Notes: generated by a model not told the origin, from the sequence alone. 36,816 nucleotides of DNA from a virus (IMGVR_UViG_2563366829_000018:1-36816); one strand, 5' to 3'; positions 8,879 to 35,908 are shown, numbered from the stretch's first letter. Program-made: numbers and translations.

Positions 8879-9154
8879 TTACTCAATAAAGATCATTGGT
8901 TTACCGTTAAAGCGTTCATGCCGTGTGACCGTCCATTGTTGTCCGTCATAAACAACGCGATCCCCGCGCCGTGGGCGGTATCCCGAAGAAAACACCACCA
9001 GAGAGACCGCAGGTCCGGACAGAGCATTCAGCTCTGCCAGTGTTTCTCCCGGGATCACAGTCATATCGACATCATTAATCGAGGCTGTCTTTCCCATCTT
9101 TCTGACCGTGATCGCATCCATACGCGCTGCCAGCCGGGAAAAGGGATCAGACAT
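8879..9154 (-). CDS. Head-tail joining protein, FII-like
   Basis: 91 aa; position between head and tail modules; loose similarity to gpFII. Confidence 0.55.
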   Translation of the reverse strand: MSDPFSRLAARMDAITVRKMGKTASINDVDMTVIPGETLAELNALSGPAVSLVVFSSGYRPRRGDRVVYDGQQWTVTRHERFNGKPMIFIE

Positions 9155-9470
9155 TGAGTTTTACCGGCACTTCTTCTGCACTGGTTCCGGCATCTGCCCA
9201 GACAACCCCGACCAGCGGATCAGAGCCGCTGTTAGTCAGCTGAACTTTTCCGGACTTCAGATAAACCTTCTTACCCGTTTTCATATCATCCGTTTTCAGC
9301 TTAGGCAGCATAAACACACCTTCGGTCATGCCGTCGCCTGTTTCACCCTGTGGAATATCGGTCAGCGCCACCGCAAAAACATCACCCACCTGCACCAGAT
9401 CTCCGCTGCTGATGGCTGCACTGGCAACAATCGCCACCGTTTTTCCTTCTTCTACAAAATTCTTTGCCAT
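9147..9470 (-). CDS. DUF2190-like phage head protein (putative decoration or assembly protein)
   Basis: Start MAKNFVEEGKTVAIVA preceded by GGAG; immediately downstream of the capsid gene. Confidence 0.55.
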   Translation of the reverse strand: MAKNFVEEGKTVAIVASAAISSGDLVQVGDVFAVALTDIPQGETGDGMTEGVFMLPKLKTDDMKTGKKVYLKSGKVQLTNSGSDPLVGVVWADAGTSAEEVPVKLNV

Positions 9471-9556
9471 AACTGTCTCCGCACAGCCCCGTTCAGGGGC
9501 TGATTTCAGGTACAAAAAAAGCCCTTACGGGCCATCAGAGTTGTTATCTGCGACGT

Positions 9557-11515
9557 TTACGCCGTACATTTCACCAGACCGCGGTGATCAACTGGCGCGA
9601 CACCGGCGTCAATACGCACTTTCGTTGTCACGCCATCCACACTGAAGCCCTCCATCTGATCAATATATGGCGTATCCACACCGTTGAGATAAGCCACTTC
9701 AATCGTATCGGAGCCTTTTGACGCAGCCAGGTAGAAGGTGGTCTGGCTGTTATCATCAAGACGAGGCTCTGCAATAACGGTCGCAAAATCTTTCACCGGG
9801 TTAATAATACCGGCGTTAATGTCAGCCCCCTTGACACTTGAGGAGCGAATGACCTGGTTAGCAACAGACTCCATCGCCGTCGGTACCAGTACGAACGCAG
9901 GACGAATATTCAGATGACGCTCCCCCTCTTTCTGAACGCGCATCAACTGGCGGGCTTTATCCAGCGATGCCACGTCCATTGCAGCGCTCTCCAGTACGTT
10001 TGCATGTTTCGCTTTATCGAACAGACTTACATTATCTGTGGAGATTTTCGGGTTAGACGTCAGAATGGCATAAACCAGATCGGCAATAGTGGATTTCGCC
10101 GCACGGCCCAGTTTCATCGGGACATCGGTCAGCATATTCAGATCATCATTGATAATGGCCTGACGGGTGATACTGAACAGCTCGCCATAGGTCGCCAGTG
10201 CAATAGTGGCCTGTTTATCTCCGGTGGTGACGTATTTATATTCCGCCCCTTCACGCACCTGACGCAGAGCACTGAAGCCCCCCATACCCACACGATGGGC
10301 AATTTTAAAATCAGACAACTGACCTTTCCGCGTCCACTGTTCATAGGTTTCAGGAGCATCTTCCCAGCCCTGCAGAATGGCTTTGTTCGCAACATCCAGC
10401 AGAATATTACCGAAGTCAGACGTACTGTGTGTGAACGCCGCACCGACCATCTGCATCGGGTTATAACTGGAAACCCCAATACCCCGTTCAGTCAGTGACA
10501 TACGGGCATATTCACGCAGGGTCATCCCGTTGTAGACATTATCACGTTCGGTTTTTTCAAATCCGGCACGCGCCATCAGCGCCTGGCGGATCCCGTCCCC
10601 CACAAAATTACCGTTACCGGCATAAATATGAGCCGGTGTATTTTTATTGGATGGCGTGGACTCGCGCCCCATCTCGTTCAACAGCTTTTCGCGGGCCTGC
10701 TCCAGCGAACATTCAGGATCGGCAAGACACTGAGCCTGCAGCGTCTGATAACGCCCGCCAAACATGGCAAACAGATCATTAATACCGTTTACACGCGCTT
10801 TTTGCTCTGCCAGTACCTGCGCACGGATACTGTTTTCATCCACCACGGGTGCTGCTGCCTGCACTGGCGTCCGGGAGGCTGCAGGTTCATCATCCTGTAC
10901 GCGTGGAGCACTGTTGCGTGGCGGAGTAATCATGTTTCGAATGGATTCCGGCATCTTTTTAAATTCCTCTGTACGTTTTGACTGAATACATGCCATTGCC
11001 TTAACGGCTGGCGTCACCTGATCAGCAAATCCATGTGCCAGACATTCGGCACCGGACATCCAGGTCTCATCCGCCAGCATGGCAGCAATTTCATCGGTGG
11101 TTTTCCCGGTTTTCTGTGCATAAGCGGGTAACAGAACCGCCTCAACCTTATCGAGCATGTCGGCATAGGTGCGCATGTCCTCCGCATCACCGCCCGTAAA
11201 GCCAAATGGTTTATGAATCATCATGAAGGTGTTTTCCGGCATAATGACCGGGTTTCCCACCATCGCAATGACCGACGCCATTGACGCCGCCACACCGTCG
11301 ACATAAACGGTAATGGACGCACCATGTGTTTTCAGCGCATTAAAAATGGCTATGCCTTCAAAGACATCGCCACCCGGTGAATTGATATGGAGATTAATGT
11401 GGGTGATATCGCCCAGTGCATTCAGATCACTGATAAACTGCTTCGCTGTAACACCCCAGAAACCAATCTCGTCATAAATATAAATATCCGCGTCACTCTG
11501 GTGACCAGCCTGCAT
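9557..11515 (-). CDS. Fused prohead protease (ClpP/S14 family) and major capsid protein (HK97 fold)
   Basis: N-terminal ClpP-like segment (INSPGGDVFEGIAIFNALK, AASMASVIAM), middle Ala/Gln-rich region, C-terminal capsid-like domain; start MQAGHQ overlaps the portal stop. Confidence 0.8.
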   Translation of the reverse strand: MQAGHQSDADIYIYDEIGFWGVTAKQFISDLNALGDITHINLHINSPGGDVFEGIAIFNALKTHGASITVYVDGVAASMASVIAMVGNPVIMPENTFMMIHKPFGFTGGDAEDMRTYADMLDKVEAVLLPAYAQKTGKTTDEIAAMLADETWMSGAECLAHGFADQVTPAVKAMACIQSKRTEEFKKMPESIRNMITPPRNSAPRVQDDEPAASRTPVQAAAPVVDENSIRAQVLAEQKARVNGINDLFAMFGGRYQTLQAQCLADPECSLEQAREKLLNEMGRESTPSNKNTPAHIYAGNGNFVGDGIRQALMARAGFEKTERDNVYNGMTLREYARMSLTERGIGVSSYNPMQMVGAAFTHSTSDFGNILLDVANKAILQGWEDAPETYEQWTRKGQLSDFKIAHRVGMGGFSALRQVREGAEYKYVTTGDKQATIALATYGELFSITRQAIINDDLNMLTDVPMKLGRAAKSTIADLVYAILTSNPKISTDNVSLFDKAKHANVLESAAMDVASLDKARQLMRVQKEGERHLNIRPAFVLVPTAMESVANQVIRSSSVKGADINAGIINPVKDFATVIAEPRLDDNSQTTFYLAASKGSDTIEVAYLNGVDTPYIDQMEGFSVDGVTTKVRIDAGVAPVDHRGLVKCTA

Positions 11516-11528
11516 CCTGAACCAGGAA

Positions 11529-13037
11529 TTATTCTTCGGACTGGTCGTCGGTGTGCTGCGGCTCCTGTCGTTTCGTTGCGGCACTGCTGCCTCCTTTATC
11601 ACTGGCCGGATCGGTATCAAATACCAGATCCAGCTTGCGGTTTTCATCAATTTCGGCCTTGCGCCGACGTTTGACATCATCCGGATTACGACCACCAGCA
11701 CGTACCCAATCTGATTCTGTCGCCGCTCCACCACGAATCTGGATTTTCCAGGCCTCAGCCTCCTTAACAGGGTCAATCCACGGCATCACTGGTCCGGAAT
11801 ACACCGCGGTATACAGTGAAGAACGGTCAAGATCGCGGGGTAGCCTGATAACACCGGATGCCACAGCCTGTTTCAGCCAGGCACGATACATCGGGCGGGT
11901 GACGGCACCAATAAACCAGTCCTGCAGGATCAGGTAGCCATCAGTAGATTCAACCAGCTCCTGACGCTGGGCGCTGTAAGTGCCGTTATAGTTGCGCGCT
12001 GTACTGGAAAAACTCAGACGACTGCCCGCCGCCACGGCACGCAACTGACCATTACGAAAAGTTTCAAGGTTAGAATTGGGGCGATCCGACTTCACCATTC
12101 CGATTTCTTCGCCGGGTTTCAGATCGTCGTAAATAATGCCTGGCTGAATGGTAAGCTCGCGTTCCTTATCCTTGCTGCCATTACCATCCGGTTCATAGCT
12201 CTGCCCGTCGCCTTTGCGGATGTACATCCCCAGAGCAGCGGCGATCCTTGCTGCAGTCAGCTCAGAATCTTCATACTCTTTCAGGGCACTGAGGCGGATC
12301 AGCACACCGGACAATAAAGACGTCCCGCGCATCTGGTGCAGACGGCGAACAAATTTAAGATGCAGCATTCGCTCTGCATCCACTTCTTTGGTTTCCATCT
12401 GCCGTCCGGATACAGGACGACTTTTATACACCAGATATTTTTCGGGACGCCCCCAGTCATCAACAAACACGCCCTGATTCAGCCTGTTGCTCTCATCACT
12501 GGTCATGGGAATAAAGTCTGGCTCGAGCGCCTCCAGCCAGAAATGAACACCGGCAGAAGGCGTCAGGCTGTTTATGCGCCCGGAAACCATCTGGGCAAAC
12601 ACCTCACCATCGCGCAGCCAGGTACGCAGCATCAGACGTTCCAGCATCGGACGGGTAAACTGCCCGGTGACTTCCGGGCTGACAGACCATTCACTCCATC
12701 GGGTGCGAATCTCCGCTGCCAGATCACGGGCAATGGCCCCATTGCGTAATACCGGATGTGGCTCGACAATAATCCCGTTTTTCCCCACCACCCGTTCTTC
12801 CAGCTTGTCAAATACACCAATAACCAGATCGTGGTTGTTATCAAGGTAACGGGCCTGCTCACGTAACGACACGGCCCCGTACTGGCTTAACTGGTCGGCA
12901 GTTCGGTTCTCCCGCCGGGCTTTGTGTGTCCGCGTCGTTTTTACGGCCTCATAAGCCTGGATCACCGCACGGGAACGCAGCCTTGCCGCTTTCCATCCTG
13001 GTGAAAAAACGCCAATCACATCATCAAGAATTGCCAT
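11529..13037 (-). CDS. Portal protein
   Basis: 502 aa; position between W and the protease/capsid gene; start overlaps the W stop. Confidence 0.85.
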   Translation of the reverse strand: MAILDDVIGVFSPGWKAARLRSRAVIQAYEAVKTTRTHKARRENRTADQLSQYGAVSLREQARYLDNNHDLVIGVFDKLEERVVGKNGIIVEPHPVLRNGAIARDLAAEIRTRWSEWSVSPEVTGQFTRPMLERLMLRTWLRDGEVFAQMVSGRINSLTPSAGVHFWLEALEPDFIPMTSDESNRLNQGVFVDDWGRPEKYLVYKSRPVSGRQMETKEVDAERMLHLKFVRRLHQMRGTSLLSGVLIRLSALKEYEDSELTAARIAAALGMYIRKGDGQSYEPDGNGSKDKERELTIQPGIIYDDLKPGEEIGMVKSDRPNSNLETFRNGQLRAVAAGSRLSFSSTARNYNGTYSAQRQELVESTDGYLILQDWFIGAVTRPMYRAWLKQAVASGVIRLPRDLDRSSLYTAVYSGPVMPWIDPVKEAEAWKIQIRGGAATESDWVRAGGRNPDDVKRRRKAEIDENRKLDLVFDTDPASDKGGSSAATKRQEPQHTDDQSEE

Positions 13038-13255
13038 CAGAACCTCGCCAGCCGGTACCCGGGATGCCCCCGTCGTCGTGTAATCAGAGCCGCAAGGCGG
13101 CGCTCCCACTCCTGCCGTCCCTGCCGGATCTCAGATAAGTTTTCCATGGTCATCTGCTGACCATTAAAGGTGACGGATTTTCCGTCCAGCACCGCCATTT
13201 CAGCTTCCGTATAACGCTGAATCATGGCTTCGATATCATTCTGGTTCATAACCAT
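13037..13255 (-). CDS. W: Head completion / head-tail joining protein W
   Basis: 72 aa; similar to lambda gpW (C-terminal RRRG.PGY); located between terminase and portal. Confidence 0.7.
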   Translation of the reverse strand: MVMNQNDIEAMIQRYTEAEMAVLDGKSVTFNGQQMTMENLSEIRQGRQEWERRLAALITRRRGHPGYRLARF

Positions 13256-18473: not shown

Positions 18474-18550
18474 TGGCGCGTTGTACTGGATTCGAACCAG
18501 TGACCGATTGCTTAGAAGGCAATTGCTCTGTCCGGTTGAGCTAACAACGC
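18474..18550 (-). tRNA. tRNA-Arg, anticodon UCU
   Basis: 77-nt cloverleaf folded by hand: GCGTTGT acceptor, anticodon loop CTTCTAA, TTCGAAT T-loop, encoded CCA. Confidence 0.85.
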
Positions 18551-18563
18551 AGGGTACAGATAA

Positions 18564-18640
18564 TGGACCACCATCGAGGACTCGAACCCCGCGCAACCAG
18601 CTTCGAAGGCTGGTGCTCTATCCTGATGAGCTAATGGCGG
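18564..18640 (-). tRNA. tRNA-Arg, anticodon UCG
   Basis: 77-nt cloverleaf folded by hand: anticodon loop CTTCGAA, TTCGAGT T-loop, encoded CCA. Confidence 0.8.
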
Positions 18641-18647
18641 TATGTGA

Positions 18648-18723
18648 TGGTGGCCCTTGCTGGATTTGAACCAGCGACCTGGCGATTATGAGTCGCTCGC
18701 TCTCACCACTGAGCTAAAGGGCC
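18648..18723 (-). tRNA. tRNA with CAU anticodon, ileX-like (Ile2 via lysidine, or Met)
   Basis: GGCCCTTTAGCTCAGTGGTGAGAGCGAGCGACTCATAATCGCC...CCA closely resembles E. coli ileX. Confidence 0.85.
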
Positions 18724-18751: not shown

Positions 18752-19465
18752 TCAATAATCAAGCCCTTGCCTGGATACATATCTGTCTGGCGGGAAGCCA
18801 TAATAGCGGTGAAATACAGAAATAAAGTAGGACCTGCTTGAATAACCGCATTTTTCTGCTATAGCCTGTCCATATCCATGCCGGGAACATAACATATTTA
18901 CAGCAACACGCATCCGCTCTTCCAGCAACAAGCGACTGAACATGCCCCCTTCATTTTTCAGTTTTGTCTTTAACAAACTCTCACTCATATGCAACTGTAG
19001 AGCAATCGCACCAAGCGTCCAGCTTGCTGATATATCTGTCTGAATTATCGCCCTGACTTTGGCACTTATGCTGGATAAACATCCACTTAAAAACAATGAC
19101 ATCCGTTCATCTGTTTCAAACAGAGACAGGCAGGCCATCATAAGAAACATATCCGTGGCCTCTCCGGAAAATCCCTGGCTGGTAATTAAAGCCGCAGCCA
19201 ACGCAGGATTGTTGGGTTCCAGCAACAGGTAAAGCGGAATGTCAGTCAGACGAGTCCTCGTCAGCTTATGCTGACTTTCCAGATATTGACTTACGACGGA
19301 TTCGCTTATATCGACAATTTTAACTTTGCCATAATGCATAAGGAAAAGCTCCCTGATGCATTTGGTGGCCAGAACAACTGAGCCTGGCTTAAGTGACAAC
19401 GTATCCTTTTCAAGAAAAATATTAATTGGGGAGCAAACCATGATAACTGAACAGACAACAGCCAT
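18752..19465 (-). CDS. AraC-family transcriptional regulator (prophage cargo, PatE-like)
   Basis: C-terminal AraC-type HTH (SESLLKTKLKNEGGMFSRLLLEERMRVAVNML ... GYSSRSYFISVFHRYYGFPP); AT-rich gene; start may be the internal Met at 19441. Confidence 0.75.
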   Translation of the reverse strand: MAVVCSVIMVCSPINIFLEKDTLSLKPGSVVLATKCIRELFLMHYGKVKIVDISESVVSQYLESQHKLTRTRLTDIPLYLLLEPNNPALAAALITSQGFSGEATDMFLMMACLSLFETDERMSLFLSGCLSSISAKVRAIIQTDISASWTLGAIALQLHMSESLLKTKLKNEGGMFSRLLLEERMRVAVNMLCSRHGYGQAIAEKCGYSSRSYFISVFHRYYGFPPDRYVSRQGLDY

Positions 19466-20075: not shown

Positions 20076-20693
20076 TCAATTATCTTCCAGGCCGGATGCT
20101 ATCAACGAAAGCCTCTCAAAAAACGCTGTAGCAGCCTTGTCCAAAGTTGAATAAGTACTGTATTCTCCGTGTTCGGGACCAACCACTACCCATGGTCGTC
20201 TTTTTGGGATTCGGGACTTCTCAGAAATCACTGTTCCAGATATACCAATATCAATTGTTACACCTGTTATTATTTTCTCTTCATCTCTTTCCCTGAACTC
20301 AATTGCCATAAATGCCGTTTTTTTTCGTTTCCCGTTTTTAAAAAAATCAAATAAAGCAAAGCGATGCTCATTAAAATCAACACCCCATCGTCCTTCAGGA
20401 TAAAGGGCATGAAAGTTGTCATTTACGCTCTGCATCGTCTCATAAGCTTTAACTTCTAAATCTCCATAGTGCATAGATACCGCGCAGGAGTCACTGGGTA
20501 ACTGTATTTTCCCAAGATTGAAAACCTTTACTGCTCCAGAACTATGGCATCTTGCCCGCAATTTATCCCCATTTATACTAATCGGAGAAATATTCCTTAA
20601 TGTTCCGGGCTGGCTCCCTCCTAAGTAAACGACTGTTAAAGATTGCTTATTTTCAATTGCATCAACTAATACATGCTCTACATTTTTATCCAT
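20076..20693 (-). CDS. Hypothetical protein (205 aa), AT-rich cargo gene immediately downstream of Q
   Basis: Strong RBS GGGAGG 6 nt upstream of ATG (MDKNVEHV); no domain recognisable by eye. Confidence 0.6.
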   Translation of the reverse strand: MDKNVEHVLVDAIENKQSLTVVYLGGSQPGTLRNISPISINGDKLRARCHSSGAVKVFNLGKIQLPSDSCAVSMHYGDLEVKAYETMQSVNDNFHALYPEGRWGVDFNEHRFALFDFFKNGKRKKTAFMAIEFRERDEEKIITGVTIDIGISGTVISEKSRIPKRRPWVVVGPEHGEYSTYSTLDKAATAFFERLSLIASGLEDN

Positions 20694-20768
20694 AATAACC
20701 TCCCAATGAACAGGTATCATCAGGAGGTTATAATAAAATATGATTATTTACTTTGATTGAATTTATTA

Positions 20769-21140
20769 CTATATGTAACAATCAATTTCTAAAGATACCC
20801 CCAACATTGCCAGACAACCGTCAATAAACCCTTCAGCTTTCTGCAGTCTGATAACAACCTGATTAAGTGATATCCCCAGTTTTACCCCCAACACCCGTAA
20901 TGTAACCCCATACACATAATACATTTCCAGTAATTCGTATTGATACGGTTCCTTTTTCTTAAGAACTGTCATCGCAGAGCTAATGATCAGGCCATCGTCA
21001 TCGCTACATTGCGGGCGGGATTTTACTTTCGAAGGAATTAATCCCTTAAAACCTGCAGCAACAGATGACCATTCCACATCCTCGTGATTATTTGCCACCC
21101 ATGCCCCCCAACGTTCAAGAACCATTTGAATATCACGCAT
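20769..21140 (-). CDS. Q: Late-gene antiterminator Q (QuuD/phage-82 type)
   Basis: MRDIQMVLERWGAWVANNHEDVEWSSVAAGFKGL matches the QuuD-family N-terminus as I recall it; GGAG RBS; position upstream of the lysis module. Confidence 0.75.
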   Translation of the reverse strand: MRDIQMVLERWGAWVANNHEDVEWSSVAAGFKGLIPSKVKSRPQCSDDDGLIISSAMTVLKKKEPYQYELLEMYYVYGVTLRVLGVKLGISLNQVVIRLQKAEGFIDGCLAMLGVSLEIDCYI

Positions 21141-21157
21141 CAACTTTCTCCACAAAA

Positions 21158-23528: not shown

Positions 23529-23851
23529 ACTTTCAGGCCCCTCTCATGTAACCAGTGGGTTGCACGCAGCCTTGCGTTTTCCTCACCGGCAAGCAGTGCG
23601 CGGATAATCCCGACCGCCTCGCTGTCGTCGTCCTTCATCGCAGTATGAAGCGTTATCCCCCGGGCCACGCCACGCTTTATCGTGATGACGCCTTTTTTCT
23701 CCAGTGCGCGAAGATGCTCCACCGCTGCATTCACCGAACGGTATCCCAGCATGGTTGCCACCTCCTGATTGGTTGGCGGGAAGCCACGTTCTTTCTGATA
23801 AGAAATCAGCATATCCAGCACCTGCTGCTGGCATTGAGTTAACGTCGTCAT
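23525..23851 (-). CDS. LexA N-terminal DNA-binding-domain protein without a peptidase domain
   Basis: LTQCQQQVLDMLISYQKERGFPPTNQEVATMLGYRSVNAAVEHLRALEKKGVI parallels the LexA winged-HTH; only 108 aa. Confidence 0.65.
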   Translation of the reverse strand: MTTLTQCQQQVLDMLISYQKERGFPPTNQEVATMLGYRSVNAAVEHLRALEKKGVITIKRGVARGITLHTAMKDDDSEAVGIIRALLAGEENARLRATHWLHERGLKV

Positions 23852-24501
23852 GCCGCCATCTCCCTGACCAGTTTTTCCGCCTGCTGGCGAACCTGCGCCA
23901 GAAACGCCTCACCACATGCCTCAAGTTCATCGCGCCCTATGTAGCTGATTGCCGGTCCCTTCCAGGTCTTGTCGAAAACAGCAATAGCACCAGCGAAGAA
24001 AGCACCTGTTGGCACCTGCTTTTCGTCTTTCGGGATAAACCAGGCAGGCAGTTCAAAACCAATACGCCCGCGAATAAAAGCAATATGATCTGCATCTTCC
24101 GGCCACCACACTTCGCTGGTGGCAGCTTTGATCAGGAAAACATAGCGCCCGCCTTTATCACGCATGGCACTGGCATGTTTCATGATGTAACGCATGCCGG
24201 TGATGTATTGCCCCTCATGCTGACTGGCGCGGCTGTACGGGGGATTACCAAAGGCAGCACCTTTAAGCTCCGCAAGACGTTCAGACCAGTCATGCGCCAG
24301 CGCGTTGTCTTCCGCAGTGTAATACGCAGCACATTTGGCGTTATCACCGTCAGTGAACAGATCCAGAACAAACGGGCCAAACAGGGTGTTAATTCCCCAG
24401 AAAATGTTGTCCGGCGTGCGCCACTGATCGCCCACTTCCTTCAGTTCATGGGCTGGTTTGTTCCGCAGTTCCACCAGCGCCTGGCAATATTTATTACTCA
24501 T
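23848..24501 (-). CDS. Phage DNA N6-adenine methyltransferase (Dam-like), orphan
   Basis: NPPY catalytic motif (FGNPPYSRAS); no adjacent restriction gene; start set at MSNKYCQ. Confidence 0.8.
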   Translation of the reverse strand: MSNKYCQALVELRNKPAHELKEVGDQWRTPDNIFWGINTLFGPFVLDLFTDGDNAKCAAYYTAEDNALAHDWSERLAELKGAAFGNPPYSRASQHEGQYITGMRYIMKHASAMRDKGGRYVFLIKAATSEVWWPEDADHIAFIRGRIGFELPAWFIPKDEKQVPTGAFFAGAIAVFDKTWKGPAISYIGRDELEACGEAFLAQVRQQAEKLVREMAA

Positions 24502-24995
24502 TAAGCCCCCACGAAATTCCCTGACAGATACCACTCTTCACCCGATGCAGCGCGCTTGCTGCTTTTCCGTAAGCACCGCTCACGACGTGCCAGAAAATTG
24601 TTTCGTTCTGGCTGGGAGTGGCTTTCACGGAATGCCGCCATCCACACCGTTGCAGCACGACGGTATAAGCCCCTGGACTCCAGTTCTTCAGCCTGGCGGG
24701 TCAGGCACAAAATCACACGGGGATCGTTAGTGCCGACATAGAAATTGCGCACAGGTCTGGTTTCACGAACTGGTTGTGGTTCCGGATCCTGCGCTCTCTC
24801 AGTCAGGCGTGGGAAATGTCTGCGTGTATCTCCTTCACAACGGTGAGCCACACGCCCACTCTGACGTAACTTGCTTGCTGACTGCAGAACGCGCTGCCGT
24901 GAGTAACCAGCAAAAGCATCCGCAATGTCTCCGGAAGTACAGCCCGGATGGGCTTCAATGAATTTCTGAACTTCATTCAAAAGACTCATGATCAC
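24501..24995 (-). CDS. Hypothetical protein with a PerC-like C-terminal region
   Basis: LESRGLYRRAATVWMAAF resembles the PerC/Pch signature (GLWRRAA..W); ATGA coupling with the upstream gene. Confidence 0.45.
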   Translation of the reverse strand: MIMSLLNEVQKFIEAHPGCTSGDIADAFAGYSRQRVLQSASKLRQSGRVAHRCEGDTRRHFPRLTERAQDPEPQPVRETRPVRNFYVGTNDPRVILCLTRQAEELESRGLYRRAATVWMAAFRESHSQPERNNFLARRERCLRKSSKRAASGEEWYLSGNFVGA

Positions 24996-28092: not shown

Positions 28093-28785
28093 ATGAACAT
28101 AGGAAACCGAGTCAGACAACTTCGCCAGGCGAAGAACATGAAAATCGCCGATCTCGCTGAAGCAATAGGAGTGGATGCGGCGAATATCTCACGCCTGGAA
28201 ACAGGTAAGCAGAAACAATTCACTGAACAAGCCCTGAGTAATATTGCCAGGAGCTTAGGTGTTGATATCGCTGATCTCTTTACCTCAGACGTCAAAAGTA
28301 ATACTGTATGTAAAAACAGTATTGGTGAGGATGTTGCGCAGGTGAAGGATGTATTCCGTATTGAAATGCTGGATGTCAGTGCCAGTGCGGGAAATGGCCT
28401 TATCCAGGGCGGTGATGTCATTGATGTGATTCATGCCATTGAATACAGAACTGATAATGCTGTATCGATGTTTGGCGGACGGCCAGCCAATCACATTAAA
28501 GTTATCAACGTTCGTGGGGACAGTATGTGTCCAACCATTGAGCCAGGAGATCTCATCTTCGTTGATATCAGTATCAATCAGTTTGATGGGGATGGTATAT
28601 ATGTATTTGGTTTTGATGATAAAATTTACGTCAAACGACTGCAAATGATACCTGATAAACTGCTGGTAATTTCTGATAATCAGATTTACCGCGAATGGGG
28701 AATTACCAGCGAAAACGAACATCGGTTTATGGTCTTTGGAAAGGTCTTAATCAGTCAGTCACAAACCCTTAAGCGACACAATTAA
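28093..28785 (+). CDS. cI: CI-type prophage repressor (XRE HTH plus S24 LexA-like autopeptidase domain)
   Basis: N-terminal HTH; C-terminal S24-like domain (VRGDSMCPTIEPGDLIFVD ... KIYVKRL); no Shine-Dalgarno sequence upstream of the ATG. Confidence 0.9.
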   Translation: MNIGNRVRQLRQAKNMKIADLAEAIGVDAANISRLETGKQKQFTEQALSNIARSLGVDIADLFTSDVKSNTVCKNSIGEDVAQVKDVFRIEMLDVSASAGNGLIQGGDVIDVIHAIEYRTDNAVSMFGGRPANHIKVINVRGDSMCPTIEPGDLIFVDISINQFDGDGIYVFGFDDKIYVKRLQMIPDKLLVISDNQIYREWGITSENEHRFMVFGKVLISQSQTLKRHN

Positions 28786-34594: not shown

Positions 34595-35908
34595 ATGGAT
34601 AAAGTCAAATATCCAACAGGCGTCGAAAACCACGGCGGCACATTACGCATCTGGTTTAATTTTAAAGGTAAACGTGTCAGGGAAAATCTTGGTGTCCCTG
34701 ACACTGCCAAGAACAGGAAGATCGCCGGGGAACTGCGGACATCAGTATGTTTTGCCATCCGCACAGGAAGCTTTGATTATGCTGCACAGTTCCCTGACTC
34801 CCCCAACCTTCAGGCTTTTGGGGTAAGTAAAAAAGAAATTACGGTGAAGGAACTTGAAGAAAAGTGGCTGGATCTGAAACGAATGGAAATCTCTGCAAAT
34901 GCATTCAATCGCTATGAATCCGTTGCAAGAACGATGGTTCCGAAAATTGGAGGCAGTAGACTGGTGTCATCGGTAACCAAAGAGGAATTGCTGTATATCA
35001 GGAAAGATTTGCTGACCGGGTATCAGAATTCAACGAAAAACAAAGCAGCAGCAAAAGGACGGAGCGTCGTTACTGTAAATTATTACATGACGACAATCGC
35101 TGGAATGTTTCAGTTTGCTGCAGATCACGGTTACTTAGAAGCAAATCCCTTCCAGGGAATTAAGCCTCTTAAAAGAGCCAGGGCAGAGCCAGATCCGCTA
35201 ACTCGTGACGAATTTATTCGCCTGATAGATGCTTGCCGACATCAGCAGACGAAAAACCTGTGGTCATTGGCTGTGTACACAGGAATGCGTCACGGTGAAC
35301 TGGTCTCCCTGGCCTGGGAAGATATCGATCTGAAGGCAGGAACAATTACCATCAGGCGCAATTATACGAAACTTGGTGAGTTCACTCTACCGAAAACTGA
35401 AGCAAGCACAAACAGGGTTGTGCACCTTATCCAGCCCGCTATCAGTGTCCTGAAAAATCAGGCTGAAATGACAAGACTGGGTAAGCAGTACAACATCAAG
35501 GTGCAACTACGTGAATATGGACGTTCAGTGAACCATGAATGTACTTTCGTGTTTAACCCTCAAGTGGTTAGAAAAAGCGAACAGGTAGGTTTTGTCTACA
35601 AAGTCGATTCTGTAGGTGACTCATGGGAAACAGCCATTAAGCGTGCAGGGATCAGGCATCGAAAGGCATACCAGTCACGACACACTTATGCGTGCTGGTC
35701 ATTATCTGCCGGAGCAAACCCAAGCTTCATTGCCAGCCAGATGGGCCATGCAAGTGCCCAGATGGTATTCAATGTATACGGAGCATGGATGACTGACAGC
35801 AATGCAGAACAGATCGCAATGCTGAATCAGAAGCTGACAGATTATGTCCCAATGATGCCCCATAGTCACCAAAGTGACACCAGAGGCTTATTAAAATCAG
35901 TAAGTTAA
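34595..35908 (+). CDS. int: Tyrosine-type site-specific integrase
   Basis: C-terminal catalytic motifs (R...HxxR...Y: MRHGELVSL, YQSRHTYACW, VFNVYG); GGAGG RBS; at the prophage end. Confidence 0.9.
   Translation: MDKVKYPTGVENHGGTLRIWFNFKGKRVRENLGVPDTAKNRKIAGELRTSVCFAIRTGSFDYAAQFPDSPNLQAFGVSKKEITVKELEEKWLDLKRMEISANAFNRYESVARTMVPKIGGSRLVSSVTKEELLYIRKDLLTGYQNSTKNKAAAKGRSVVTVNYYMTTIAGMFQFAADHGYLEANPFQGIKPLKRARAEPDPLTRDEFIRLIDACRHQQTKNLWSLAVYTGMRHGELVSLAWEDIDLKAGTITIRRNYTKLGEFTLPKTEASTNRVVHLIQPAISVLKNQAEMTRLGKQYNIKVQLREYGRSVNHECTFVFNPQVVRKSEQVGFVYKVDSVGDSWETAIKRAGIRHRKAYQSRHTYACWSLSAGANPSFIASQMGHASAQMVFNVYGAWMTDSNAEQIAMLNQKLTDYVPMMPHSHQSDTRGLLKSVS

What the first reader, a model, noticed from the sequence alone, without database searches (positions are those of the whole stretch)
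9557..11515. Single gene encoding fused ClpP-like protease and major capsid protein
Lambda has separate protease (C), scaffold (Nu3) and capsid (E) genes. Here one 652-aa ORF combines a ClpP-family protease domain, a linker and an HK97-fold capsid domain, implying autoproteolytic maturation.
Basis: partly seen in the sequence, partly recalled or inferred. Interest (0 to 1): 0.45.

Follow-up and report, generated by a model that had tools for sequence, protein, structure and literature searches.

The report
Known fused protease–scaffold–capsid phage gene
This is a real single gene in an E. coli lambda-like prophage that joins a ClpP-like head protease, a scaffold segment and the major capsid protein, but it is a close relative of the already studied Salmonella phage Gifsy-2 capsid gene and is routinely annotated, so it is ordinary.

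Summary
The minus strand carries one uninterrupted ORF ending at 9557. It has an N-terminal ClpP-like (S14) protease domain, a variable linker, a helical scaffold-like segment and a C-terminal Mu-gpT/HK97-type capsid domain.

It matches the curated NCBIfam model NF045540, [quoted passage not shown], end to end (984 bits, cut-off 475). It is ≥98% identical in DNA to the same gene in 16 records of E. coli phages (mEp460, cdtI, Tritos, Ayreon and others). It occurs in 2125 of 5426 complete E. coli genomes. It is 69% identical over its full length to the phage Gifsy-2 gene product, whose "tripartite capsid gene" was described by Effantin et al. in 2010. More than 100 clusters at 50% identity share the fused architecture.

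One correction: the start is most likely the GTG at 11584 (675 aa), not the ATG at 11515 (652 aa). The GTG has a strong AAGGAGG ribosome-binding site. Residues upstream of the ATG are conserved. That Met is Ile in Gifsy-2 and in half of the distant homologues.

The catalytic Ser101 and His124 are invariant in 40 of 40 homologues. Self-processing is therefore the best-supported mechanism, by homology rather than by any test here.

Verdict: already known, low interest.

The parts
9557..11584 (-). Complete CDS of the ClpP-like prohead protease / scaffold / major capsid protein fusion: 675 aa from GTG 11584, stop codon 9557-9559.
   Evidence: ORF list and start scan. NF045540 984 bits against cut-off 475. 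PGAP annotates the 675-aa form in near-identical genomes. 69% identity to Gifsy-2 STM1034.3n.
11590..11596 (-). Shine-Dalgarno sequence AAGGAGG, 5 nt upstream of the GTG start. It lies inside the 3' end of the portal gene.
   Evidence: Anti-SD duplex -11.6 kcal/mol against -2.2 for ATG 11515. Coordinates checked. Conserved in mEp213, and GGAGG plus ATG in Pseudomonas phage CF165a.
11516..11584 (-). Bases 11529-11584 overlap the portal gene in another frame.
   Evidence: All 15 close homologues start in the same alignment column, and K17, S20, W21, F22, R23 are invariant. W21 is kept in 26/40 and Y/F22 in 29/40 distant homologues. Position 24 is Met in only 9/40.
11012..11449 (-). ClpP-like (MEROPS S14-type) serine protease domain, aa 46-191 of the 675-aa protein. 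Catalytic Ser101 is codon 11282-11284 and His124 is codon 11213-11215. Glu173 (codon 11066-11068) sits at the position of the ClpP catalytic Asp.
   Evidence: Pfam CLP_protease E 3.3e-36. NF045542 'head maturation protease, ClpP-related' 216 bits against cut-off 120. Alignments to solved ClpP chains. Ser and His invariant in 40/40, Glu in 34/40. Codons checked.
10919..10999 (-). Segment after the protease domain, conserved among the enterobacterial homologues, aa 196-222 (AMACIQSKRTEEFKKMPESIRNMITPP). It includes Met211.
   Evidence: Invariant in 15 enterobacterial homologues. Pro212 is kept in 36/40 distant homologues but Met211 in only 3/40. The SD-like GAGGA upstream of Met211 gives -6.0 kcal/mol.
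10838..10918 (-). Hypervariable Ala/Pro/Val-rich hinge, aa 223-249.
   Evidence: Indel-rich and unconserved even among homologues of 75-96% identity. Length ranges from 5 to 56 aa in distant homologues. Composition.
10463..10837 (-). Helical scaffold-like segment, aa 250-374, functionally comparable to the HK97 delta domain or lambda Nu3. The maturation cleavage site is probably within or just after it; its position is not determined.
   Evidence: Length is conserved (aa 252-320 spans 64-79 aa in 40 homologues). It is the only part of the AlphaFold model above pLDDT 65 (aa 250-300) and is predicted helical. It lies outside both Pfam domains. The scaffold role is inferred from Gifsy-2 and MD8 gp5.
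9569..10462 (-). Major capsid protein domain, Mu gpT / HK97-fold type, aa 375-672.
   Evidence: Pfam Phage_capsid_4 E 7.4e-55 and Mu-like_gpT E 3.7e-08. A profile of the C-terminal part hits solved capsid chains 8rkc/8rkx 'Bacteriophage Mu GpT domain-containing protein' at E 3e-11 and 9jod 'Major capsid protein' at 2e-08.
9510..9533 (-). Terminator-like hairpin (GGCCC-GTAA-GGGCT) followed by T7, 24 nt after the stop codon.
   Evidence: Terminator scan, RNA fold, sequence. The mEp213 record annotates a rho-independent terminator at the same position. Function not tested.
9147..9470 (-). Next gene downstream: 107-aa capsid cement/decoration protein. It replaces lambda gpD in this head module.
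   Evidence: Pfam Phage_cement_2 PF09956 E 1.4e-20. 61% identical to the Gifsy-2 gene that follows its capsid gene.
11529..13109 (-). Upstream gene: lambda-family portal protein. The PGAP-type start at 13037 gives 502 aa. Its 3' end overlaps the fusion gene by 56 nt.
   Evidence: Pfam Phage_portal_2 E 4.2e-82. Annotation of the near-identical genome. The same 56-nt overlap occurs in mEp213.

Best explanation
[quoted passage not shown] It lies in the head module of a lambda-like prophage, between the portal gene and the cement-protein gene.

Shown here: one 675-aa (73.6 kDa) polypeptide carries four parts in order.
- A ClpP-like serine protease domain with Ser101 and His124 intact.
- A short hypervariable hinge.
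- A helical scaffold-like segment of about 125 aa.
- A Mu-gpT/HK97-type coat domain of about 300 aa.

Inferred from Gifsy-2, HK97 and lambda: the full-length protein assembles into a T=7 procapsid around the portal, with the protease and scaffold parts pointing inward. Once concentrated inside the shell, the protease domains cut the chains between scaffold and coat and digest the N-terminal roughly 40 kDa. The fragments leave, and the shell of coat domains (about 32 kDa or somewhat larger) expands during DNA packaging. The shell is then stabilised by trimers of the downstream cement protein rather than by HK97-type crosslinks. The fusion fixes protease, scaffold and coat at 1:1:1 and removes the need for separate targeting of the protease.
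For: - Domains.
- ClpP alignments and invariant Ser/His.
- Capsid domain matches solved Mu-GpT-type capsid chains.
- 69% identity over aa 18-674 to the Gifsy-2 protein and 61% for the next gene.
- Same gene order as Gifsy-2 (terminase, small protein, portal, fusion, cement, Z, U, V).
- The gene is found at >=98% identity in records of phages whose listed hosts are laboratory strains, such as Ayreon on E. coli K12, phi458 on MC1061 and PhiR55_1 on E. coli C, so it supports virion production.
- More than 100 distinct 50%-identity clusters keep the full fused length.
Against: - No direct evidence of cleavage, its position or its kinetics for this protein. The primary Gifsy-2 paper could not be read, so its details rest on citing papers and on my memory of its abstract.
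- The third triad residue is Glu rather than the canonical ClpP Asp.
- The AlphaFold model was unusable (mean pLDDT 35.9), so fold and domain boundaries rest on sequence profiles.
- By my own arithmetic from the masses, 415 copies of a 41-kDa internal part make about 17 MDa, roughly half the interior of a T=7 procapsid. That is crowded. Not every subunit may be full length.
Confidence: 0.87

Rival explanations
1. In addition to the full-length protein, an internal start at Met211 (ATG 10952-10954) makes a protease-free scaffold-coat protein, as lambda makes Nu3 inside gene C and Mu makes Z inside gene I. Most shell subunits would then lack the protease.
For: Met211 sits just after the protease domain. 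It is invariant in 15 enterobacterial homologues and has a moderate SD-like GAGGA about 10 nt upstream, at -6.0 kcal/mol. It would relieve the crowding of about 17 MDa of internal protein (inference).
Against: Met at this position is kept in only 3 of 40 distant full-length homologues, whereas the neighbouring Pro212 is kept in 36 of 40, so the conservation looks like protein constraint. The SD match is much weaker than that of the main start, and similar scores occur elsewhere in the ORF. No data on translation were available.
Confidence: 0.08
2. The fusion is an artefact, or a decayed prophage gene, in which a frameshift or lost stop codon joined separate protease and capsid genes.
Against: The same continuous ORF is present in 16 phage records at >=98% identity, each with a single CDS under the match, and in 2017 complete E. 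coli genomes. It is also present in Gifsy-2 at 69% identity, in Pseudomonas phages at 56% and in more than 100 clusters of 36-60% identity with lengths of 640-750 aa. A curated NCBIfam model exists for the fused form.
Confidence: 0.01
3. The ClpP-like domain is catalytically dead and acts only as extra scaffold mass. Removal of the N-terminal part would then be done by a host protease.
For: The canonical Asp of the ClpP triad is replaced by Glu. The protein scores far below the cut-offs of the cellular ClpP equivalog models, for example TIGR00493 at 60.5 bits against 308.6.
Against: Ser101 and His124 are invariant in 40 of 40 homologues, and the surrounding GxAASMAS and MIHxP motifs are kept. 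Glu is itself conserved in 34 of 40 and is an acceptable acidic third residue. The dedicated model NF045542, 'head maturation protease, ClpP-related', is passed at 216 bits against 120.
Confidence: 0.03

Closest known systems
Salmonella phage Gifsy-2 tripartite capsid gene (STM1034.3n, 696 aa; Effantin et al. 2010, Virology 402:355)
   Same: 69% identical over aa 18-674, with the same order of ClpP-like protease, hinge, scaffold-like segment and coat domain. It has the same neighbours: a lambda-type portal upstream with an overlapping start, a 107-aa cement protein downstream at 61% identity, then Z, U, V. Both are lambdoid temperate phages of enterobacteria.
   Different: The hinge sequence and length differ. 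There is an 8-aa indel just before the coat domain, and the N-terminal leader differs. Nothing functional distinguishes them in this analysis.
E. coli phages mEp460, cdtI, Tritos, Ayreon, PhiR55_1, phi458, HannyBb (gene named protease/scaffold protein, head maturation protease or major capsid protein)
   Same: 98.4-99.9% DNA identity over the whole gene, so this is effectively the same gene. PGAP names it 'ClpP-like prohead protease/major capsid protein fusion protein' in E. coli genomes.
   Different: Only the annotation differs, both in the names and in the start codon chosen. The rest of the prophage is mosaic relative to these phages: the best records cover 78% of window bases 1-25000 at about 94% identity.
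Pseudomonas phage MD8 gp5 and relatives (PMC8508860)
   Same: A 693-aa protein described as capsid maturation protease, scaffold and MCP encoded by one gene, in a lambdoid genome. A Pseudomonas phage homologue, vB_Pae_CF165a, is 56% identical over the whole length of the window protein.
   Different: Different host genus and lower identity. MD8 gp5 itself was not compared directly here.
Lambda C / Nu3 / D / E
   Same: Same position in an otherwise lambda-like late operon, with gpA-type terminase, lambda-family portal and Z/U/V/G/T/H tail genes. The logic is the same: protease plus scaffold removed by proteolysis, and the shell stabilised by a trimeric decoration protein.
   Different: Lambda's protease belongs to the SppA/S49 type. 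The SppA models are far below cut-off here (TIGR00706 at 22 bits against 155). In lambda, protease and scaffold are nested in one gene and the coat protein E is a separate gene. The cement protein here is PF09956 rather than gpD.
HK97 gp4 (protease) and gp5 (delta domain + coat)
   Same: The scaffold function is fused to the N-terminus of an HK97-fold coat protein and removed by a phage protease inside the procapsid (established knowledge; summarised in PMC8508860).
   Different: The HK97 protease is a separate gene of a different family (herpesvirus-assemblin-like, from my own knowledge), and HK97 stabilises its shell by covalent crosslinks rather than a cement protein. Here the protease is part of the same chain.
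NF045541 scaf_prot_MCP2, 'prohead protease/major capsid protein fusion protein'
   Same: The scaffold-plus-coat part of the window protein (aa 197-649 of the 652-aa form) aligns to positions 176-630 of this second fusion family at E 1.9e-119. Fusion of a protease to this coat type is therefore recorded in two curated models.
   Different: The N-terminal protease part does not align, and the score of 400 bits is below that model's cut-off of 525. The window protein is not a member.

Membership tests
NF045540 ClpP-like prohead protease / major capsid protein fusion (Gifsy-2 type) | Full-length match to the curated family model above its cut-off | tested here: met
   984 bits against a cut-off of 475, covering profile positions 2-651 of 652. 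PHROG 133 covers aa 1-652.
NF045540 ClpP-like prohead protease / major capsid protein fusion (Gifsy-2 type) | Protease, scaffold-like and coat parts in one uninterrupted reading frame | tested here: met
   Single ORF 9557-11584 with no stop. The same holds in 16 phage records and 2017 genomes.
NF045540 ClpP-like prohead protease / major capsid protein fusion (Gifsy-2 type) | Close homology to the experimentally studied member (Gifsy-2) | tested here: met
   69% identity and 83% positives over 668 aligned residues.
NF045540 ClpP-like prohead protease / major capsid protein fusion (Gifsy-2 type) | Location in a head module between the portal gene and a cement/decoration gene | tested here: met
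   Phage_portal_2 upstream and Phage_cement_2 downstream. Same order in Gifsy-2.
NF045540 ClpP-like prohead protease / major capsid protein fusion (Gifsy-2 type) | Proteolytic removal of the N-terminal protease and scaffold parts, so that only the coat fragment is in the virion | not testable with these tools
   Needs SDS-PAGE, mass spectrometry or Edman sequencing of procapsids and virions.
ClpP / peptidase S14 fold proteases | Ser-His-Asp catalytic triad at the conserved positions | tested here: inconclusive
   Ser101 and His124 are present and invariant in 40/40. The Asp position is Glu173, which is Glu in 34/40 and Asp in 2/40. An acidic residue is kept, but it is not the canonical Asp.
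ClpP / peptidase S14 fold proteases | Being a cellular ATP-dependent ClpP subunit (equivalog-level match) | tested here: not met
   TIGR00493 clpP scores 60.5 bits against a cut-off of 308.6, and the other ClpP equivalogs are similarly below cut-off. The domain is ClpP-related but is not a cellular ClpP. The phage-specific model NF045542 is passed at 216 bits against 120.
HK97-fold major capsid proteins (Mu gpT subgroup) | Sequence-profile membership in a capsid family | tested here: met
   PF25209 Phage_capsid_4 at 187.5 bits against a cut-off of 27, and PF10124 Mu-like_gpT at 33.5 bits against 20.1.
HK97-fold major capsid proteins (Mu gpT subgroup) | Relationship to a capsid protein with a solved structure | tested here: met
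   A profile of 14 C-terminal parts hits PDB 8rkc/8rkx (Mu GpT domain capsid protein) at E 3e-11 and 9jod (major capsid protein) at E 2e-08. The single sequence gives E 2.6e-04.
HK97-fold major capsid proteins (Mu gpT subgroup) | Predicted three-dimensional fold with A-domain, P-domain, E-loop and N-arm | tested here: inconclusive
   AlphaFold2 on a shallow alignment of 15 sequences gave mean pLDDT 35.9 and pTM 0.22, so no fold search was run.
Lambda gpC-type (SppA/S49) prohead proteases | Match to SppA/S49 family models | tested here: not met
   TIGR00706 SppA_dom scores 22.4 bits against a cut-off of 155, and TIGR00705 scores 13.5 against 311. Only the distant shared ClpP/crotonase-like fold signal is seen.

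The most novel reading that the evidence does not exclude
In the enterobacterial branch of this family, the invariant Met211 with its weak GAGGA site may serve as a second, internal translation start. It would yield a protease-free scaffold-coat protein alongside the full-length chain. The 56-nt overlap with the portal gene would couple translation of the full-length form to portal synthesis. The protease dose per procapsid would then be tuned, as in lambda C/Nu3, rather than fixed at 1:1.
Probability: 0.08. Interest if true: 0.3.

Novelty: already known. Interest (0 to 1): 0.1.

Why it matters
It matters little beyond correct annotation. The arrangement is a textbook-level curiosity of phage head assembly, in which protease, scaffold and coat are delivered as one polyprotein. 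It was described for Gifsy-2 in 2010, has its own NCBIfam model, and is present in about 40% of complete E. coli genomes.

Two practical points follow:
- Public phage records name this gene inconsistently: Nu3, protease C, head maturation protease, major capsid protein.
- The 652-aa gene model is probably 23 codons too short.

Neither the position of the maturation cleavage nor the way about 41 kDa of internal protein per subunit is accommodated could be addressed here, and the primary Gifsy-2 paper could not be consulted.

Tried and rejected
- AlphaFold2 on a 15-sequence alignment (75-96% identity) gave pLDDT 35.9, which is unusable, so no fold search was run. The diverse homologues from the representative search could not be fed to the predictor under the tool rules. 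I judged a second 13-CPU-hour homologue search not worth it, because the verdict would not change.
- The primary paper (Effantin et al. 2010) is not held under its PubMed id or DOI. I relied on citing papers.
- A full-text search for 'ClpP-like' + 'major capsid' + 'fused' + 'prophage' found nothing. One search was malformed.
- PDB search with the full-length profile listed only ClpP chains among the 60 rows shown. The capsid relatives appeared only when the C-terminal part was searched alone.
- Internal initiation at Met211 was considered and largely rejected, because Met is kept in only 3/40 distant homologues.
- ATG 11515 as the start was rejected.
- PADLOC scans of several small ORFs elsewhere in the window found nothing except a type II methyltransferase.

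Full report
**What is in the sequence**

The window is a lambda-like E. coli prophage whose late genes run on the minus strand. An open frame extends from 11776 down to a TAA stop at 9557-9559.

- Pfam places a CLP_protease domain at aa 23-168 (E 3.3e-36).
- Pfam places a Phage_capsid_4 domain at aa 352-649 (E 7.4e-55), with a secondary Mu-like_gpT match.
- NCBIfam NF045540, named [quoted passage not shown], matches end to end at 984 bits against a cut-off of 475.
- PHROG 133 covers the entire protein.

**Is the fusion real?**

Independent sequences answer it.

- Megablast finds the gene at ≥98% identity in 16 phage records, each with a single CDS under the match. They include mEp460, cdtI, Tritos, Ayreon, phi458, PhiR55_1 and HannyBb.
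- It is present in 2125 of 5426 complete E. coli genomes, and 2017 of them hold at least 80% of it. PGAP names it the fusion protein.
- A search of 1.84 billion cluster representatives returns more than 100 distinct clusters. They are 36-60% identical, 640-750 aa long and match the query from about residue 5-10 to about residue 649.

The fused architecture is old, widespread and under selection.

**Start codon**

The evidence:

- The only in-frame start between the portal stop region and the ATG is the GTG at 11584.
- AAGGAGG precedes the GTG with a 5-nt spacer. Its anti-SD duplex energy is -11.6 kcal/mol, against -2.2 for the ATG.
- mEp213 (74% protein identity) has the same GATAAAGGAGGC…GTG.
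- In 40 diverse full-length homologues that position is Ile in 20 and Met in only 9. Trp21 and Tyr/Phe22 upstream of it are conserved. Gifsy-2 reads NSWYSIRAA where the window reads NSWFRMQAG.
- PGAP uses the 675-aa form.

The gene is therefore 9557-11584. It overlaps the portal gene by 56 nt.

**Anatomy (675-aa numbering)**

- aa 46-191 form the ClpP-like domain. Alignment to solved ClpP chains puts the catalytic Ser at Ser101, in GVAASMAS, and the His at His124, in MIHKP. The ClpP Asp aligns with Glu173. Ser and His are invariant in 40 of 40 homologues of 33-52% identity. Glu is kept in 34 of 40.
- aa 196-222 form a segment that is invariant among the enterobacterial homologues.
- aa 223-249 form an Ala/Pro/Val-rich hinge. 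It is unconserved and full of indels even among close relatives, and it ranges from 5 to 56 aa in distant ones.
- aa 250-374 are conserved in length. This segment contains the only region (aa 250-300) that AlphaFold predicted with some confidence, as helices. By position and by analogy it is the scaffold part.
- aa 375-672 form the coat domain. A profile of 14 C-terminal parts hits solved capsid protein chains 8rkc/8rkx ("Bacteriophage Mu GpT domain-containing protein", E 3e-11) and 9jod ("Major capsid protein", E 2e-08).

The AlphaFold model as a whole failed (mean pLDDT 35.9). The HK97-type fold therefore rests on sequence profiles and not on a predicted structure.

**Context**

The upstream genes are a small terminase-like gene, a gpA-type large terminase, a 72-aa protein and a lambda-family portal. 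The downstream genes are a 107-aa Phage_cement_2 protein, a Gifsy-2-family head-tail protein, and then homologues of lambda Z, U, V, G, T, H, M, L, K, I and J. Lambda's C/Nu3/D/E block is thus replaced by the fusion gene plus a cement protein, inside an otherwise lambda-like operon.

**Comparison with what is known**

The Gifsy-2 genome record has the same gene order. Its 696-aa "Clp protease involved in capsid processing" is 69% identical to the window protein over aa 18-674, and the following 107-aa proteins are 61% identical.

- The Gifsy-2 gene is the subject of Effantin et al. [quoted passage not shown] - I could not read the paper itself. My recollection of its abstract, marked here as my own knowledge, is a ClpP-like N-terminus, a central domain of about 200 residues with a possible scaffolding role, and a C-terminal coat protein modelled with HK97 gp5 and lambda gpD.
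- The same architecture is described for Pseudomonas phage MD8 gp5 (PMC8508860).
- A second curated fusion family, NF045541, shares the scaffold and coat parts but not the protease. The window protein scores below its cut-off, at 400 bits against 525.

**Mechanism**

Shown here: an intact, conserved serine-protease active site, a scaffold-like helical segment and a coat domain lie in one chain. The gene is present in records of phages whose listed hosts include laboratory E. coli strains.

Inferred from Gifsy-2, HK97 and lambda: the steps are as follows.

1. Full-length chains co-assemble on the portal into a T=7 procapsid, with the N-terminal parts inside.
2. The protease domains, concentrated inside the shell, cleave between scaffold and coat and degrade the N-terminal roughly 41 kDa.
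3. The fragments leave the shell.
4. The shell expands on DNA packaging.
5. The cement protein binds and stabilises it.

The cleavage site is unknown. The hydrophilic, indel-bearing stretch around aa 305-320, just before the coat domain, is a plausible place, but this is only an inference.

One open quantitative point comes from my arithmetic on the masses. With 415 copies, the internal parts total about 17 MDa, roughly half the procapsid interior. I therefore checked for a lambda-Nu3-like internal start.

- Met211 has a weak SD (-6.0 kcal/mol) and is invariant in enterobacterial homologues.
- It is Met in only 3 of 40 distant ones.

I rate that idea at about 8%.

**Verdict**

The feature is already known, curated and extremely common. 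Interest is low.

Noticed in passing
window 9510-9533, minus strand: A terminator-like hairpin (GGCCC GTAA GGGCT) followed by seven T lies 24 nt after the stop of the fusion gene and before the cement-protein gene. The mEp213 record annotates a rho-independent terminator at the same place. It may lower expression of downstream genes relative to the coat gene, or be read through under Q antitermination.
   Followed up: partly
window 11529-11584: The portal gene and the fusion gene overlap by 56 nt in different frames, and the fusion gene's Shine-Dalgarno sequence lies inside the portal coding sequence. mEp213 has the same 56-nt overlap. The Gifsy-2 record has an 86-nt overlap and Pseudomonas phage CF165a a 29-nt overlap. 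This suggests translational coupling.
   Followed up: partly
window 18474-18723, minus strand: A cluster of three tRNA genes lies upstream of the lysis genes: Arg(tct), Arg(tcg) and one with a CAT anticodon. ARAGORN calls the CAT one Met, but PGAP calls it tRNA-Ile in a related genome. Such clusters are typical of Stx-type and other lambdoid phages.
   Followed up: no
window 20076-20720, minus strand: A 214-aa ORF sits in the lowest-GC part of the window (38% against about 52%). It has no Pfam or PADLOC match. It lies between the Q antiterminator gene (20769-21155) and an AraC-type regulator gene (18752-19465), which looks like a moron or cargo position. In a related genome the equivalent region carries DUF262 and HEPN-like nuclease genes.
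   Followed up: partly
window 23848-24534, minus strand: The ORF matches a type II DNA methyltransferase (PADLOC MTase_II, E 1e-158) within the early/nin region. No restriction partner was looked for.
   Followed up: no
window 28093-28785 (+) and 34595-35908 (+): A CI-like repressor with HTH and Peptidase_S24 domains and a tyrosine integrase with an Arm DNA-binding domain are present. The window therefore spans nearly a whole, apparently intact lambdoid prophage, from the tail gene J region to the integrase. No single complete E. coli genome in the collection holds 80% or more of window bases 12000-36816 in one place, so the prophage is a mosaic.
   Followed up: partly
public phage records PV340571.1, PV340560.1, ON470578.1, OV696610.1 and others: The same gene is named 'head-tail preconnector protein Nu3', 'head-tail preconnector protease C', 'head maturation protease', 'putative protease' or 'Major Capsid Protein' in different records. 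None of these names reflects the fused nature of the protein. This is an annotation inconsistency, not biology.
   Followed up: yes
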